NCBI GenBank assembly: GCA_964493715.1
Contig: CAZBPC010000089.1
Span: 1-13,273, forward strand
Direction: 5' to 3'
DNA: 13,273 nt
Origin: an uncultured archaeon
GTDB lineage: Archaea; Asgardarchaeota; Lokiarchaeia; Sigyniarchaeales; SOKP01
Shown here: positions 999 through 12,414 of the stretch, one piece after another
How positions within the stretch are numbered: the stretch's first letter is position 1
How the letters are laid out: each line of letters opens with the position of its first letter
Made by a program: the position numbers and the translations under genes
The notes under the pieces: generated by a model
Told to the model about the DNA's origin: nothing
Database searches by the model: none
What the model saw: only the letters and a program-made list of their open reading frames with translations

Positions 999-2391
999 AT
1001 GAGTAAAAAAGAATCTAGTACGGGTAAAAAAGCTTTGTTTTATAGTTTTGGCCAGATAAGTGATATCACTGCATATCAGTCATTTATATTACTAACATTC
1101 ACTTTTTATTTTGCGATAGTGGGAATTGAAACATGGTTAATGGTTCTTGGCTTTATACTGTGGTCGATATGGAATGCATTCAACGATCCGATAATGGGTT
1201 ATCTATCCGATAGAACACACACGAAATGGGGCCGACGAATGCCATATATCATCGGTGCATTTATTCCTTTGGCAATAGTGATGCCATTAATATATACACC
1301 CCCCATTTCATACGGAATAACTGGTCAAATCGCGAATTTTTCCTATTTTTTAATAATAATTGTACTATTTGAGCTATTTTATACCATCTTTAGCTTGAAT
1401 TTAACTTCACTCTTCCCTGAAGTTTTCATGACTGAAAAAGAACGGACACAAGCTAACAATATTCGTCAAGTTTTTACAATTATTGGATTAATCGTTGCAT
1501 TTATATTACCAGGATTAATAATTTCATCCTATACTAAACCAAGTTCCTTACCACAATTCCAGCTGTTTGGTATTATTGCAGGAATCATCATAGTTTGCAT
1601 GTTCTCTCATATTTTTAATCTTTGGTCCAAAGGAAAGAACTGAATTTCAGCAAGATTACATGAATGCTTTCAGCTTGTTCAAAACAATAAAAAATTGCTT
1701 TAAAAGTAAATCATTTCGATGGTATATCATCGCTGAGACGTGCGTGTGGTTCGTATATGGCATGCTTCCTACGATCGTGCCATTATATGCGCAAAATGTA
1801 CTGCATGTGGAATCAGGAATCTTAACTTCTGTGCTACTAGCAACTACATTTTTATCTGCGACGCTATTCATTACCTTTCTATGGAAACCTTTAGTGCGAA
1901 AAATTGGGAATAGAAAGGCCTGGATTATATCTTTTATAATCTGGATTTTCGCTCTTTCCGGAACTATGTTTATAAGCGAATTTATTGGAGGGTTAATTGT
2001 CTTCTTTTTGATCGGAATCGGTTTATCGGGATCACTTTTTATTATCGATCTAGTGGTTGCTGATATTGTTGATGAAGATGAGATTGCTACAGGCATGAGA
2101 CGAGAAGCAGGATATTATGGCGTCAATGCGTTCGTTCTTCGATTTTCAAATGTTTTAGTCATTTTAGCTATTGGATTTGTTTTCTCAGGAACTGATTGGA
2201 GTGGAGGATATGTACCCAACCCTGGGATAGACGTGGAAATAGGGTTAAAAATACTAATGTTTGCCCTTCCCGCCATTGCATTAGTAATTGCGGCATTAGC
2301 AATATATAAATATCCATTACATGGAGAAAAACTTCTTAAAGTAAAAGAAAAACGCGAAATAATACATGATCAAAAAAAATCACGAATATAA
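999..2391 (+). pseudogene. GPH/MelB-like MFS sugar:cation symporter, frameshifted by one extra base at about 1594-1596 (pseudogene or sequencing error)
   Basis: ORF 999-1643 has the GPH N-half (WNAFNDPIMGYLSDRTHTKWGRRMPY). ORF 1660-2391 has the C-half (ADIVDEDEIATGMRREAGYYG). Deleting one T in gtttgca joins them as ...IIIV-ACSLIFLIFGPKERTEFQQDY-MNAF..., restoring a membrane helix and the central loop. Confidence 0.85.
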
Positions 2392-2517
2392 TGTGATATT
2401 TTTTTCTCTTTTTTTCTATTTTCTTTATTAAGCTTAGCCGTTCAAGACCTTGGTGAGAGCAAGTAAAAGAATAAAAAGAAATTAACAAAAAAAATTAGTT
2501 TTTACATATTAAATACG

Positions 2518-2556
2518 TTAAAATTCATATCCACACTTTTTACAAACGTGCTTCTT
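2518..2556 (-). repeat. Orphan second copy of the last 12 codons plus stop (KKHVCKKCGYEF*) of the coiled-coil/Zn-ribbon gene; degenerate direct repeat of 3293-3331
   Basis: Minus strand reads AAG AAG CAC GTT TGT AAA AAG TGT GGA TAT GAA TTT TAA, versus AAA AAG CAC GTA TGC AAA AAA TGC GGT TAC GAG TTT TGA at 3331-3293. 30/39 nt are identical and all 9 differences are silent. Confidence 0.95.
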
Positions 2557-3124
2557 AAAAAAATCGAGCAGAATTAAGCCAAATTTCACAATCACAATGA
2601 CCACCATAGTATCGGCAAAATCTCAGAAATTGATCTTGAATTTCTGGGCTTATCCCCATTTTTGTTAGAATTGCTCTAGAAAGAGGGTAAGAGTCGCCAC
2701 CACATTTGATGCCCGAACGCGTTAATCGAGTGATTCCAATGCCCTCACCTCCTTTCAATCGGTTGAAAAATTCTTCAATTTCACTCTTATTCATCTGAAG
2801 TTCATTTCTTAGTTTATCATAATACACGATTTCAGAATTACATTCAATACAGAGCCATTGTCTCATATCAGGACGATATATCATATCTTTATCTCTATGA
2901 CCGCAATGAAGACAGAGACAAATGGACAATTCCTCAAATAGACATAATTCGGATCTATTTCTTAGAATTATTGTAGATCGATCATCATCCCAATTATGTT
3001 TCTCTATTTGTTCGGTTAAAGAACTCCAAATATCATCAATCCACAATTGTAGTATGTTTCTTAATTCATTCCGAATTCTTCTCAGTCGGGGATTCTTAAT
3101 GATAATTGCTCTCTCTTTTTTCAT
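2555..3124 (-). CDS. Cys-rich protein: central CxxC...CxxC zinc finger plus C-terminal DUF2695-like domain
   Basis: 189-aa ORF with CLHC...WLCIEC and a C-terminal C...GGHCDCEIWLN matching the GGxCDCE(V/I)xxN signature I associate with DUF2695. Its TAA overlaps the orphan repeat. Confidence 0.7.
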   Translation of the reverse strand: MKKERAIIIKNPRLRRIRNELRNILQLWIDDIWSSLTEQIEKHNWDDDRSTIILRNRSELCLFEELSICLCLHCGHRDKDMIYRPDMRQWLCIECNSEIVYYDKLRNELQMNKSEIEEFFNRLKGGEGIGITRLTRSGIKCGGDSYPLSRAILTKMGISPEIQDQFLRFCRYYGGHCDCEIWLNSARFF

Positions 3125-3260
3125 GGTATTAATCTTTTAAAAATTTTGCAATCTTTTTTCATCAATATTCAATTTCAATTCTAATACTCTCTTAATATTA
3201 TCAATACTTAATTAAGACTCTCTATAGTAAGTTTAATCAACTTTGATTAAGATTTTTAAT

Positions 3261-3278
3261 AAAAATAGAAAAAAAAAC
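3261..3278 (-). terminator. Oligo-T tract, probable archaeal terminator after the coiled-coil gene
   Basis: A-rich run on + (T-rich on -) starting about 15 nt after the TGA at 3293. A similar tract lies at about 2465-2494 after the orphan tail copy. Confidence 0.45.
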
Positions 3279-3292
3279 AGATTATTATTCTT

Positions 3293-4234
3293 TCAAAACT
3301 CGTAACCGCATTTTTTGCATACGTGCTTTTTGGCATACAGTTCCCAAAATATTAGAAATTAATAGATTTTTGGAATATGCCCCACGTAACTCAAAACTTT
3401 GCCTTTATCTTCAATTTGTTTAATATCATGGCCTACAGCACCACACATGGGGCACGTGGTCCTCTCATCGCTAGCAAAGCCACCCGAACCAATATCAGGG
3501 GGTTTTAATTCACTTAGTTCGGTTTCAACTTCTTCAATGAGAGAAGTCTGGGCTTCAATCAGTTTTTCTTTCTCACCAATAGAACCCGATAAATTCTGAA
3601 TTTCTCCATTTTTTTGTATCAATAAATCATTAAATTCTTGCAGTTGGGATTGAAGATTTGCATTCTCTGATTGAGCAGATTCAAGTTTGCTTGTTAATTC
3701 TTGGATTTTATTTGAAAGTTGACTAACTTGCTCTTGAGATTCTGAACCAAGACTCATGGCGTTATTTAATTCACTTTTCAAATCATCCAAATCAGCAGTT
3801 AGACTAGCATTTTTTTCATTTAAAGCGGATACTTCGCTCTCTTTTGCTGCATAATTTGTTTCCAATTCACTTATTTTCGAATTTGCTCCAGTCAGATTTG
3901 TTTGTAACCCATCCATTTCTGCCGTAATTCTAGCAATCGTTTGCGTTTTACTCTCGATATCTTTCATACTTTGTTCGAGAGAGGATTTAACTGATGCCAA
4001 TTCAGTTTTAACGCCATCCAAAGTAGATTTGGTTGAATTATGCTCGTTAGTTTCCTTATCTAAATTTTTTGTAGTATCTTGGAGCGTTTTTTGTGTTTGA
4101 GTAAGCTCTTTTCGGTGTTCACTTACTTGTTGTTCAAGATCATTAACTTTAGCCCTCAGATCCAGCAAGAATCTGCCTTCAACCTTCTGAGTTTTGTCTG
4201 GTTTGGCTTCTGCGGCGGCCCAATCAATCGACAT
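3293..4234 (-). CDS. Long coiled-coil protein with C-terminal zinc ribbon (CPMC...CKKC), interrupted by a 30-nt putative intron; about 303 aa if spliced
   Basis: Heptad-rich Q/E/K/L/S region, then CPMCGAVGHDIKQIEDKGKVLSYVGHIP. The ORF track stops at TAA 3359-3361, but the same frame continues to YAKKHVCKKCGYEF-TGA (3293), supplying the second CxxC. Likely start is ATG 4234 (MSIDW); GTG 4243 is the alternative. Confidence 0.85.
3340..3369 (-). other. Putative 30-nt BHB-type (tRNA-endonuclease-spliced) intron in a protein-coding gene
   Basis: Insert AAAUCUAUUAAUUUCUAAUAUUUUGGGAAC contains an in-frame UAA. It folds with a 4-bp central helix UUCC/GGGA, 5' bulge AAA, 3' bulge ACUG, flanking exon helix GGCAUA/UAUGCC and an internal hairpin. 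Removal gives CCA A|UG UAU = ...HIPMYAKKHVC. Confidence 0.7.
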
Positions 4235-4429
4235 ATTTTTCACACTCGTAATAGAATATTGTTGATTCTAATTTGATCATTTTGATTAAATAAACAATAA
4301 TTGGATATATATTTAATTTTAATGAAAAAAAAAATTCTGGAGCTTCTTTTTCAAGATAATTTTTATTAGAACTTTAAAAACATAAATTTTGAATAAAACA
4401 ATAAGGCTCTAAAAAAAGATAATTCGCTA

Positions 4430-12254: not shown

Positions 12255-12271
12255 ATTAGTGAAAGATTGAA

Positions 12272-12375
12272 CGCAGATGGAGGGATTCGAACCCCCGAGC
12301 GCTTTCACGCACCAGCTTTCTCCGTCACTTTTTATGCTCTCGAAGCTAGCGTCTTACCAACTAGGCTACATCTGC
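12272..12375 (-). tRNA. tRNA-Ser(CGA) with a 21-nt intron at 37/38 (about 12318-12338); CCA not encoded
   Basis: Acceptor stem GCAGAUG/CAUCUGC, discriminator G, anticodon stem CUAGC/GCUGG, loop UU-CGA-G|A, long variable arm GCGU-GAAA-GCGC and T arm GGGGG-UUCGAAU-CCCUC. Confidence 0.95.
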
Positions 12376-12414
12376 ATCTAGATAAATTCTTCAATTAGGT
12401 ATAGTTTAGTTGAA

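What the first reader, a model, noticed from the sequence alone, without database searches (positions are those of the whole stretch)
3320..3388. Candidate BHB (tRNA-type) intron in a protein-coding gene of an Asgard archaeon
Seen in sequence: the Zn ribbon of the coiled-coil gene reads ...GHIP-KIY*FLIFWE-LYAKKHVCKKCGYEF*, so a 30-nt stop-containing segment separates the two CxxC pairs without shifting frame. The RNA can fold as exon-exon helices UACGUG/CACGUA (3388-83/3325-20) and GGCAUA/UAUGCC (3381-76/3337-32), a 3' bulge ACUG, a 4-bp central helix UUCC/GGGA (3375-72/3345-42), a 5' bulge AAA (3371-69), then AA/UU and UAUUA/UAAUA closing a 5-nt loop. Established: archaeal EndA cuts after the second nucleotide of each bulge, some EndA types accept relaxed HBh'/BHL motifs, and RtcB ligates the exons. 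The well-known mRNA example is the cbf5 intron of Crenarchaeota. Applying that rule removes exactly 3369-3340 and gives CCA A|UG UAU, i.e. HIPMYAKKHVCKKCGYEF, in frame with a complete C4 ribbon. Inference: an EndA-spliced mRNA intron, possibly gating production of the full-length versus Zn-ribbon-less protein. Caveat: the alternative register UUCC/GGAA with bulge CUG would excise 31 nt, out of frame, so the exact junction is inferred.
Basis: partly seen in the sequence, partly recalled or inferred. Interest (0 to 1): 0.92.

Follow-up and report, generated by a model that had tools for sequence, protein, structure and literature searches.

The report
Thirty-base intron inside an archaeal gene
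A 30-base, stop-containing insert in a zinc-ribbon gene of a Lokiarchaeia-type (Asgard) archaeon has the shape and exact borders of a tRNA-type intron; similar inserts sit at three sites of the same gene in five other genomes and in the RNA ligase gene, so these archaea very probably splice some messenger RNAs with their tRNA-splicing enzymes.

Summary
All 20 orthologue copies first examined read ...HIPMYAKKHVCKKCGYEF with no insert. The insert can only be placed at 3369..3340 (minus strand), which are exactly the cut sites the bulge-helix-bulge (BHB) rule predicts.

Across 152 genomes of the order, six copies of this zinc-ribbon domain carry an internal stop. Each is exactly 30 nt longer than normal. 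The inserts lie at three sites and share one architecture: one bulge base, a 9-position stem with a 5-nt loop, a 4-nt strand that pairs with the upstream exon, and two bulge bases. A genuine 30-nt tRNA-Gly intron of this genome has the same layout.

The genome encodes a two-subunit EndA and RtcB. Its only rtcB locus is itself broken by a 29-nt frame-shifting insert with a clean HBh' motif. A second species shares that insert, and its exons differ mostly at synonymous sites.

No RNA of this strain was available, so splicing is inferred, not seen. In this window the motif is relaxed: it has a 4-nt 3' bulge, it is not the minimum-energy fold, and competing registers would be out of frame.

Verdict: very probably EndA/RtcB-spliced mRNA mini-introns, not described for Asgard coding genes in the literature I searched.

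The parts
3370..4243 (-). Exon 1 of the coiled-coil / C-terminal zinc-ribbon gene. It carries the first CxxC (CPMC). Its last bases are CCA A, the first base of the Met codon.
   Evidence: ORF list. The orthologue alignment covers residues 2-316. Pfam gives only sub-threshold coiled-coil hits for the orthologue.
3340..3369 (-). 30-nt intervening sequence (AAATCTATTAATTTCTAATATTTTGGGAAC) with an in-frame TAA at 3361-3359. Proposed BHB-type mini-intron.
   Evidence: Absent from 20 of 20 orthologue copies, with a unique placement. Only copy in the genome and in 41 genomes of the genus at up to 3 mismatches. Present in an independent DNA contig.
3293..3339 (-). Exon 2: TG of the Met codon, then YAKKHVCKKCGYEF and TGA. 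This is the second CxxC of the ribbon.
   Evidence: The amino-acid sequence is identical to the orthologue consensus.
3372..3375 (-). 5' strand (UUCC, exon 1) of the central 4-bp helix H.
   Evidence: Pairs 4 of 4 with GGGA 3345-3342. This register has pair probabilities of about 0.8, against about 0.2 for the 31-nt register.
3369..3371 (-). Proposed 5' bulge AA^A, with the cut between 3370 and 3369.
   Evidence: Geometry. The cut rule was checked on tRNA-Gly(GCC) of the same genome. In the free-RNA MFE these A's pair with U3346-3348.
3346..3368 (-). Intron helix h': AA/UU, a 2x2 mismatch, the 5-bp stem UAUUA/UAAUA and the 5-nt loop AUUUC.
   Evidence: 7 of 9 positions pair. All six inserts and the tRNA-Gly intron share this layout.
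3342..3345 (-). 3' strand (GGGA, intron) of the central helix H.
3338..3341 (-). 3' bulge AC^UG, with the cut between 3340 and 3339. It has 4 nt instead of the canonical 3.
   Evidence: h = 0 with a 3-nt bulge and h = 6 with a 4-nt bulge. The site-2 insert of G130 has the same 4-nt bulge.
3376..3381 (-). Exon-1 strand (GGCAUA) of the exon-exon helix h.
   Evidence: Pairs with 3337-3332. The helix is 6 bp only in the two site-2 intron bearers. In 54 intron-less copies the longest is 5 bp.
3332..3337 (-). Exon-2 strand (UAUGCC) of helix h.
2518..2556 (-). Second copy of the tail KKHVCKKCGYEF*, in the +1 frame after gene 2. It is most likely the original 3' end of the gene, or of a tandem paralogue, displaced by insertion of gene 2. 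It is not part of the intron.
   Evidence: Direct repeat D1, 37 nt, 78% identical. I counted 9 differing bases by eye: eight lie at synonymous third codon positions and one changes the stop (TGA to TAA). The downstream flank resembles the terminator region of the closest orthologues. Tandem paralogues exist in G018 and G021.
2555..3124 (-). Gene 2 (189 aa). It belongs to a patchy, genus-restricted family and is inserted between the zinc-ribbon gene and its native terminator.
   Evidence: Matches in 17 of 24 same-genus genomes and 0 of 16 outside the genus, at other loci. Absent from the orthologous loci. Only a sub-threshold DUF2695 hit.

Best explanation
Window 3369-3340 (minus strand) is a 30-nt mini-intron of the archaeal bulge-helix-bulge type inside the coding sequence of a coiled-coil/zinc-ribbon gene.

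Proposed mechanism:
1. The pre-mRNA folds so that exon bases UUCC pair with intron bases GGGA, forming the central helix. An exon-exon helix lies on one side and an intron hairpin on the other.
2. The genome's two-subunit splicing endonuclease EndA cuts after the second base of each bulge, at 3370|3369 and 3340|3339.
3. RtcB joins the exons. This recreates the Met codon and the complete C4 ribbon exactly as it stands in the orthologues.

Unspliced RNA would give a protein that stops at TAA and lacks the second Cys pair.

The insert belongs to a small family of 30-nt introns at three sites of this gene in three genera. The family is patchily distributed and probably spreads with short tracts of flanking exon. 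The same genome also has a 29-nt intron of this kind in rtcB.

Shown: the insert, its exact borders, its structural potential, its recurrence, the presence of the enzymes, and purifying selection on exons downstream of such inserts.

Inferred: cleavage and ligation in vivo, the register EndA uses, and the mode of spread.
For: (1) Borders. 20 of 20 orthologue or paralogue copies lack the insert and read HIPMYAKK. Only removal of 3369-3340 gives that sequence.

(2) Structure at exactly those borders. The central helix pairs 4 of 4, h' has 2 contiguous pairs (7 of 9 positions of the hairpin pair), and h is 6 bp with a 4-nt 3' bulge. Chance rates are 0.17% for random genomic 30-mers at this site, 0.02% for shuffled inserts and 0.015% for arbitrary segments in the strong class.

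(3) Recurrence. One search lists only the best matches over 152 genomes (all at E <= 2.3e-20; 461 weaker matches not listed). Six of them have an internal stop, and all six are exactly +30 nt: G000, G019, G096, G130, G146, G150. They occupy three sites (CP^MCG, IP^MYAKK, YAK^KHVC). All share one layout. The central helix pairs 4 of 4 in four of the six and 2 of 4 in the two site-1 copies. The inner stem pairs 7-8 of 9 positions.

(4) Same layout in a genuine tRNA intron. tRNA-Gly(GCC) of this genome has a 30-nt intron with the central helix 4 of 4, h = 7 and h' = 9 under the same cut rule.

(5) Exon helix h at site 2. It is 6 bp in both intron bearers, which belong to different genera, and at most 5 bp in 54 intron-less copies. 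Exon flanks of intron bearers resemble each other more than they resemble their own sisters.

(6) Enzymes.
- A catalytic EndA subunit: best solved-structure match 3p1z_B at 1e-36, with the His retained.
- A second EndA paralogue in which the position aligned to that His is Ser.
- Published passages state that Asgard archaea have (alpha-beta)2 EndA with the L1 loop that goes with relaxed-motif cleavage (PMC5829648).
- RtcB is present.

(7) rtcB.
- The only rtcB locus of G000 is split at Pfam model position 47/48 by a 29-nt frame-breaking insert.
- Removing it restores GGVGY|DINCGVR, as in 5 of 5 relatives read.
- Central helix UUGG/CCAA 4 of 4, bulge AU^A and a 9-bp h' appear in the MFE itself.
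- G001 shares the insert (28 of 29 bases identical).
- Between G000 and G001 the exons differ at 14 synonymous and 3 non-synonymous codons upstream, and 16 and 6 downstream.
- 34 other genus genomes have rtcB contiguous.

(8) Selection downstream of the site-1 insert. G019 and G096 differ at 23 synonymous and 3 non-synonymous codons of 42 compared; two of the 42 are the stop and the codon after it.

(9) tRNA genes. Only 27 were found by ARAGORN, 12 of them with introns of 11-39 nt. This fits the heavy, repeatedly gained tRNA interruption reported for Asgard archaea (10.64898/2026.10.13.758758, abstract and passages).
Against: No spliced RNA or circular intron was seen. The two RNA runs laid hold only a relative about 93% identical. 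Its contig reads straight through without the insert and differs at synonymous sites, so it is an intron-less allele, not a spliced product.

In this window the motif is relaxed:
- The 3' bulge has 4 nt.
- The 5' bulge AAA is paired in the MFE (pair probabilities about 0.8).
- The BHB conformer costs 5.5 kcal/mol more than the MFE.

Two other registers also score as BHB-like and would be out of frame: 31 nt with an all-Watson-Crick central helix and a proper 3-nt bulge, and 28 nt.

The site-1 inserts have only 2 of 4 central pairs.

The insert is single-copy, and it is absent from the closest sisters G006 and G022, so it could be recent.

The neighbourhood shows other damage: a +1 frameshift in the adjacent MFS gene and a displaced gene tail.

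Two genome-wide structural scans found no excess of such motifs over controls.
Confidence: 0.85

Rival explanations
1. A recent pseudogenising insertion. A 30-nt piece of DNA landed in the gene, the protein is truncated, and the BHB likeness is chance.
For: The insert is unique to G000 within its clade; sisters G006 and G022 lack it. The adjacent MFS gene is frameshifted, and the locus was rearranged by insertion of gene 2. The motif is relaxed and is not the MFE. No RNA evidence is available.
Against: Chance gives such a motif at the exact borders in at most 0.17% of trials. Six separate genomes have inserts of exactly 30 nt in the same 62-aa domain, with the same geometry. Exons downstream of the inserts evolve mostly by synonymous change. 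Among the four matches to the full-length protein elsewhere in G000, none exceeds 34% identity, although matches to it were found in all 41 genomes of that search and matches to its ribbon domain in 151 of 152 genomes of the order. The essential single-locus rtcB carries the same kind of insert in two species.
Confidence: 0.06
2. A small DNA-level mobile or recombination-borne hairpin element that is not removed from the RNA. The truncated protein is tolerated, or is the functional form.
For: The distribution is patchy with intron-less sisters. G146 and G150 share a stretch of 100% identity around the insert, two 50-column bins from -21 to +79, inside a gene otherwise 36-88% identical. Exon flanks are shared between genera. 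All of this shows DNA-level transfer.
Against: DNA-level spread is equally expected for a mobile intron. It does not explain pairing between exon and insert at the cut register. It does not explain conserved downstream exons, or a 29-nt frame-breaking insert in rtcB. No terminal inverted repeats or target duplications are visible at the three sites (sequences; inspected by eye).
Confidence: 0.05
3. Translational recoding. Either ribosomes hop from the UAU before the UAA (3364-3362) to the UAU 27 nt downstream (3337-3335), or they read through the stop.
For: In this window a stop directly follows a UAU codon inside a hairpin, and a matching UAU lies 27 nt on. This is the layout recalled for phage T4 gene 60 and for mitochondrial 'byp' elements; both comparisons are from memory, not from a call.
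Against: The hop product, IPKIYAKK, differs from every orthologue, which read IPMYAKK. The site-1 inserts have no matching take-off and landing codons (sequence, inspected by eye). The rtcB insert is 29 nt and changes frame. The stops are TAA in some inserts and TAG in others, and the inserted peptides are not conserved between G000 and G130.
Confidence: 0.03
4. An assembly or binning artefact.
For: The genome is a metagenome assembly in 160 contigs.
Against: An independent run's contig reproduces 2365-3425 without a single difference. Homologous inserts occur at the same sites in assemblies of other species.
Confidence: 0.01

Closest known systems
cbf5 pre-mRNA intron of Crenarchaeota (Watanabe 2002; Yokobori 2009, PMC2738675, passages read)
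   Same: A short BHB-type intron inside a protein-coding sequence, often with a relaxed motif. It is linked to a hetero-oligomeric splicing endonuclease of broad specificity, and it shows lineage-specific presence and absence. Some cbf5 introns are of similar size (36 bp in Staphylothermus, per that paper).
   Different: The host gene and the phylum differ; cbf5 of this genome is uninterrupted. Here there are three insertion sites within 62 codons and a uniform length of 30 nt. Homologous introns sit at the same site in different genera with intron-less sisters. There are signs of co-transfer of flanking exon. Splicing is not yet shown here, whereas cbf5 splicing was shown experimentally.
[quoted passage not shown]
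   Same: The same motif and cut rule, the same size range (11-39 nt in this genome), and the identical 30-nt layout in tRNA-Gly(GCC). Repeated gains on terminal branches with no known route of arrival.
   Different: The host is an mRNA, so the exon half of the motif must be written in codons. An in-frame stop makes the unspliced form a truncated protein. There is no sequence similarity to the tRNA introns.
BHB intron in the 5' UTR of HVO_1309 mRNA of Haloferax volcanii (PMC7714728, passages)
   Same: An mRNA substrate of the tRNA splicing endonuclease, found outside the Crenarchaeota.
   Different: That intron lies in the untranslated leader, not in the coding sequence. It was demonstrated in vivo and in vitro.
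Unconventional HAC1/XBP1 mRNA splicing in eukaryotes (recalled; the abstract of PMC8718801 in the listing mentions RtcB and XBP-1)
   Same: A short intron is removed from a coding sequence by an endonuclease and RtcB without a spliceosome. Removal changes the C-terminal part of the protein.
   Different: The endonuclease there is IRE1, which recognises stem-loops, not EndA and a BHB. No homology is claimed. A regulatory role is established there and is unknown here.

Membership tests
Archaeal BHB (EndA/RtcB-spliced) intron | An intervening sequence absent from orthologues, whose removal restores the conserved gene product. | tested here: met
   20 of 20 orthologue copies lack it. The placement 3369-3340 is unique and restores HIPMYAKK.
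Archaeal BHB (EndA/RtcB-spliced) intron | A central 4-bp helix between exon bases just upstream of the 5' cut and intron bases just upstream of the 3' cut, with each cut after the second bulge base. | tested here: met
   UUCC/GGGA pairs 4 of 4 at the exact register. The rule was validated on tRNA-Gly(GCC) of the same genome. Chance rates are at most 0.17%.
Archaeal BHB (EndA/RtcB-spliced) intron | Two 3-nt bulges on opposite strands, flanked by helices h and h' (canonical hBHBh'). | tested here: inconclusive
   h' is present but weak (2 bp, then a mismatch, then 5 bp). h is 6 bp only if the 3' bulge has 4 nt. The 5' bulge is paired in the MFE, and the BHB conformer is 5.5 kcal/mol above the MFE. 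By the published classifier this is an HBh' class motif (passage).
Archaeal BHB (EndA/RtcB-spliced) intron | The host encodes a splicing endonuclease able to cut relaxed motifs, and an RtcB ligase. | tested here: met
   Two EndA paralogues, one with and one without the catalytic His. Passages state that Asgard archaea have (alpha-beta)2 EndA with the L1 loop. RtcB is present. The assignment of the catalytic residues and of the loop is recalled knowledge.
Archaeal BHB (EndA/RtcB-spliced) intron | Spliced RNA, a circular intron, or in vitro cleavage observed. | not testable with these tools
   The one read-laying run found RNA contigs only of an intron-less relative about 93% identical. No raw RNA reads of this strain were available.
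Programmed translational bypass (T4 gene 60 / byp-like; features recalled) | Matched take-off and landing codons flank the gap, and the product equals the conserved protein. | tested here: not met
   The UAU...UAU match exists only in G000, and its product IPKIYAKK differs from all orthologues. The site-1 inserts have no match. The rtcB insert changes frame.
Self-splicing group I/II intron or intein | A ribozyme core of hundreds of nucleotides, or an in-frame protein-splicing domain without stops. | tested here: not met
   The insert is 30 nt and contains an in-frame TAA.

The most novel reading that the evidence does not exclude
Lokiarchaeia-type Asgard archaea carry a family of mobile 29-30-nt BHB mini-introns in protein-coding genes. 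The introns enter BHB-permissive codon contexts (CCAA^UG at sites 1 and 2; an exon ending in AA at all three). They spread between species together with about 100 nt of flanking exon. The tRNA-splicing machinery removes them. One of them sits in rtcB, so production of the RNA ligase would depend on the ligase itself, a built-in feedback loop. This would make mRNA splicing by EndA and RtcB a regular part of gene expression in the closest prokaryotic relatives of eukaryotes. It would also provide a living system in which intron gain in coding genes can be watched.
Probability: 0.5. Interest if true: 0.93.

Novelty: new variant of a known kind. Interest (0 to 1): 0.88.

Why it matters
A passage in a 2020 paper (PMC7714728) says that only one further BHB intron in an mRNA had then been reported, in cbf5 of Crenarchaeota. 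That paper adds one in a 5' UTR. My four literature searches found no report of such introns in Asgard coding genes. The library searched is limited, and supplements were closed.

Here the same kind of intron appears in two unrelated genes of one Asgard genome, and at three sites of one gene across three genera. Presence/absence polymorphism among close relatives is still visible.

Consequences:
- Gene callers will truncate or split these genes.
- The question of how archaeal introns arrive, stated as open for Asgard tRNA introns, becomes testable. Donor and recipient alleles, co-conversion tracts and target contexts can all be compared.
- It raises the possibility that the tRNA-splicing enzymes already acted on mRNAs in the lineage from which eukaryotes arose.
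- The intron in rtcB suggests self-dependence of the splicing ligase.

Tried and rejected
RNA evidence. One run search and one laying gave no transcript of this strain. X19 and X20 hold a relative 90-95% identical, and X11 does not cover 3010-3364. Nothing about splicing follows from this, either for or against.

Repeat or mobile-element copies. blastn-short in G000 found no second copy; the next best hit is 13 nt. Pattern searches at up to 3 mismatches in 41 genus genomes and 152 order genomes found each insert only at its own site.

Genome-wide scans in G000:
- CCAA...TGT plus any 5-bp hairpin: 2234 real against 1529 in the reversed genome, too permissive.
- Isolated in-frame stops plus the 30-nt layout: strict class 11 against 10 in the control.
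- HBh' motifs that would join two long open frames: 336 candidates, mostly adjacent genes.
None of the three discriminates, so I cannot say how many further coding introns exist. The rtcB case was found by chance when I checked for the ligase.

cbf5 of G000 is uninterrupted.

Pfam gives no domain above cut-off for the zinc-ribbon protein.

I considered the second tail copy at 2518-2556 as a sign of +1 frameshifting in gene 2. I rejected this in favour of a displaced original 3' end.

The careful tree did not finish, so the quick IQ-TREE tree was used.

Supplementary files of papers were not consulted because they are closed. Those of 10.64898/2026.10.13.758758 and PMC5829648 may list the EndA types and intron catalogues of these very genomes.
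Full report
WHAT IS THERE. On the minus strand, the ORF 3359..4243 encodes a coiled-coil protein. It ends ...TCPMCGAVGHDIKQIEDKGKVLSYVGHIPKIY and stops at TAA (3361-3359). The same frame continues FLIFWELYAKKHVCKKCGYEF to TGA at 3295-3293. The region folds better than shuffles, with z = -2.72.

The window is contig C89 of a 3.68-Mb, 31% G+C genome in 160 contigs. Relatives returned by the search for related loci are titled Promethearchaeota or Promethearchaeia MAGs, that is, Lokiarchaeia-type Asgard archaea.

A search of 41 related genomes found orthologues of 47-81% identity. In 18 loci, 20 copies of the C-terminus could be read, and all 20 read SYV(G/S)HIPMYAKK(H/N)(V/L)CKKC(G/S)YEF without any insert.

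Their DNA reads CC(N) ATG TA(Y) GC(N). The window reads CCA A[30 nt]TG TAT GCC. Only removal of 3369-3340 recreates the ATG, and shifting the deletion by one base in either direction does not.

A DNA contig from another sample's run covers 2365-3425 with no difference, so the insert is not an assembly artefact.

STRUCTURE AT THE BORDERS. I wrote a scorer for the rule 'cut after the second base of each 3-nt bulge, bulges separated by 4 bp'. I checked it on this genome's tRNA-Gly(GCC), which has a 30-nt intron at the canonical position with central helix 4 of 4, h = 7 and h' = 9.

At the window's borders:
- The central helix UUCC/GGGA pairs 4 of 4.
- h' begins with 2 pairs, and 7 of 9 positions of the hairpin pair.
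- The exon-exon helix GGCAUA/UAUGCC (6 bp) is adjacent only if the 3' bulge has 4 nt, AC^UG.

Chance gives this class at exact borders in 331 of 200,000 random genomic 30-mers placed at the site, in 38 of 200,000 shuffles of the insert, and in 31 of 200,000 arbitrary in-situ segments for the strong class.

Against this:
- The MFE pairs the AAA of the 5' bulge with UUU.
- The BHB conformer is 5.5 kcal/mol less stable than the MFE.
- A 31-nt register (all Watson-Crick central helix, 3-nt bulge CU^G) and a 28-nt register also score as BHB-like and would be out of frame.
- In the ensemble, the in-frame register of the central helix dominates, about 0.8 against 0.2.

THE INSERT IS NOT ALONE. One orthologue (G019) showed an internal TAG. 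It has a different 30-nt insert at CCAA^TGTGC, inside the first knuckle CP-M-CG.

I then searched the 62-aa ribbon domain in all 152 genomes of the order. Among the matches listed (E <= 2.3e-20; 461 weaker ones not listed), six have an internal stop, and every one is exactly 30 nt longer than normal:
- G000 and G019 (genus g1)
- G096 and G130 (genus g22)
- G146 and G150 (genus g23)

The sequences define three sites:
- Site 1, CP^MCG: G019 and G096; inserts 24 of 30 identical.
- Site 2, IP^MYAKK: G000 and G130; 17 of 30 identical, with a shared 11-nt core.
- Site 3, YAK^KHVC: G146 and G150; inserts identical.

All six have one layout: base 0 completes the 5' bulge, bases 1-9 pair with 23-15 (7-8 of 9), bases 10-14 form a 5-nt loop, bases 24-27 are the 3' strand of the central helix, and bases 28-29 open the 3' bulge. 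All three sites have an exon ending in AA.

The central helix pairs 4 of 4 at sites 2 and 3. G130 has UUCC/GGAA, all Watson-Crick, and a 5' bulge that cannot pair away. At site 1 it pairs only 2 of 4, although there h and h' are spaced 7 by 7 nt with both cuts after the sixth base, which is the BHB geometry.

Each insert sequence occurs nowhere else at up to 3 mismatches.

EVOLUTIONARY PATTERN. In a quick maximum-likelihood tree of 60 copies, the gene follows the genera. Each intron bearer has intron-less sisters:
- G000 with G006 and G022 (SH-aLRT 99)
- G019 with G017 and G010 (99)
- G096 with G128 (92)
- G146 plus G150 (99), next to the intron-less G148 (97)

Homologous inserts at one site in different genera therefore mean either many precise losses or lateral spread. 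Three results favour spread with flanking exon:
- G146 and G150 are 36-88% identical along the gene, but 100% identical in the two 50-column bins from -21 to +79 around the insert.
- The exon flanks of intron bearers resemble each other more than their own sisters: 19 of 19 identical bases upstream of site 1, and GGGCATATTCCAA / TGTATGCC at site 2.
- The exon helix h at site 2 is 6 bp in both bearers, and at most 5 bp in 54 intron-less copies (lengths 1: 22 copies, 2: 12, 4: 18, 5: 2).

Downstream of the site-1 insert, G019 and G096 differ at 23 synonymous and 3 non-synonymous codons of 42 compared, the last two being the stop and the codon after it. Downstream of site 2, G000 and G130 differ at 6 and 1 of 14. 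If the inserts arrived separately in each lineage, these counts say little about the time spent with the insert.

THE MACHINERY, AND A SECOND GENE. G000 has two EndA genes.
- The first (C5) matches the solved structure 3p1z_B at 1e-36 and keeps the His.
- In the second (C58, best match 1a79_A at 8.6e-21) the position aligned to that His is Ser.
- That these are a catalytic alpha and a structural beta subunit, and that the N-terminal loop is the specificity loop, rests on recalled knowledge and on passages of PMC5829648. Those passages state that Asgard archaea have (alpha-beta)2 EndA with the L1 loop, and that only such enzymes cut non-canonical introns.

ARAGORN finds only 27 tRNA genes in this 100%-complete genome, 12 of them with introns of 11-39 nt. 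This is in line with the heavy interruption reported for Asgard tRNA genes.

Checking for the ligase, I found that the only rtcB locus is split at Pfam model position 47/48, with a 29-nt gap between the matches.
- The sequence reads ...GGVGY, then a 29-nt insert with a TAG, then DINCGVRLL in another frame. Relatives read GGVGYDINCGVR without a break, in 5 of 5 loci read.
- With the placement C2:12164-12136, the central helix is UUGG/CCAA (4 of 4), the 5' bulge is AU^A and h' has 9 contiguous pairs. This is the minimum-energy structure itself.
- G001 has the same insert (28 of 29 bases identical).
- Its exons differ from those of G000 at 14 synonymous and 3 non-synonymous codons upstream, and at 16 and 6 downstream.
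- 34 other genomes of the genus have rtcB contiguous.

A frame-breaking insert in a single-locus gene that an intron-rich organism needs, kept through this much synonymous divergence, is hard to explain unless it is removed from the RNA. This is the strongest indirect evidence that these organisms splice mRNAs at BHB motifs, and it raises my confidence in the window's insert.

WHAT IT IS MOST LIKELY. The insert is a BHB-type mini-intron cut by EndA at 3370|3369 and 3340|3339 and sealed by RtcB, giving the complete C4 ribbon. Confidence is about 0.85.

Rivals:
- A recent pseudogenising insertion (0.06)
- An unspliced DNA-level hairpin element (0.05)
- Ribosomal hopping or read-through (0.03)
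- An artefact (0.01)

The hopping idea arose because UAU-UAA is followed 27 nt later by UAU. However, its product differs from all orthologues, and the other inserts lack such codon pairs.

COMPARISON WITH WHAT IS KNOWN. The mechanism proposed is that of the crenarchaeal cbf5 intron (PMC2738675, passages) and of tRNA introns. As of 2020, cbf5 and a 5'-UTR intron in Haloferax were the only mRNA cases cited (PMC7714728, passage). Four full-text searches found nothing on Asgard coding genes. cbf5 of this genome is intact.

What is new here:
- The host lineage and the host genes
- The uniform 29-30-nt hairpin layout
- Three sites within one small domain
- The polymorphic, apparently laterally spreading distribution
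- An intron in the ligase gene itself

LIMITS.
- No transcript evidence.
- The register used by EndA is inferred from the orthologues.
- The motif in this window is relaxed.
- My genome-wide scans could not tell real from chance, so the true number of coding introns is unknown.
- The tree is the quick version.
- The regulatory gating idea is untested.

Noticed in passing
G000 contig C2:12136-12164 (minus strand), outside the window; also locus L191 (G001): The only rtcB locus of this genome is interrupted by a 29-nt frame-breaking insert between GGVGY and DINCGVR, with a clean HBh' motif (UUGG/CCAA, bulge AU^A, 9-bp stem). G001 shares it (28 of 29 identical), and 34 other genus genomes lack it. 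The RNA ligase mRNA would need splicing to make the ligase.
   Followed up: yes
window 999-2391 (+), break near 1590-1600: The MFS-type transporter gene is in two frames (ORFs 999-1643 and 1660-2391). Relatives have one ORF of 444-460 aa. The difference looks like one extra base after GTT near a run of T. It could be a pseudogene, a sequencing error or recoding.
   Followed up: partly
window 2518-2556 and 2555-3124 (-): A second copy of the KKHVCKKCGYEF* tail lies after gene 2 and differs from the first at 9 bases: eight synonymous third positions and the stop codon (counted by eye). Its downstream flank matches the terminator region of the orthologues. Gene 2, from a patchy genus-specific family, seems to have been inserted into the 3' end of the locus or into a tandem paralogue.
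   Followed up: partly
window 12271-12376 (-): With its intron option, ARAGORN calls a tRNA-Ser(CGA) with a 21-nt intron here. The standard tRNA tool call found nothing in the window. My BHB scorer found no canonical motif within 4 nt of ARAGORN's borders.
   Followed up: no
whole genome G000: ARAGORN finds only 27 tRNA genes in a genome rated 100% complete, 12 of them with introns. Several have lengths of 104-135 nt, which suggests further, non-canonical introns. Many tRNA genes are probably hidden by interruptions.
   Followed up: no
loci L093 (G150) and L094 (G146), around the site-3 insert: Two species whose gene copies are 36-88% identical share a stretch of 100% identity, two 50-column bins from -21 to +79 around the insert, covering the insert, exon 2 and the start of the 3' flank. 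This is the signature of a recent recombination or co-conversion event.
   Followed up: partly
window 3375-4272, RNA runs X19 and X20: Metatranscriptome contigs 90-95% identical to the gene show that a close relative's intron-less allele is transcribed in sediment. At 3375 the X19 contig continues with the uninterrupted IPMYAKK coding sequence, using different synonymous codons.
   Followed up: partly
loci L007/L036 (G018), L010/L043 (G021), L035 (G045): Some genomes of the genus carry two tandem paralogues of the zinc-ribbon gene.
   Followed up: no
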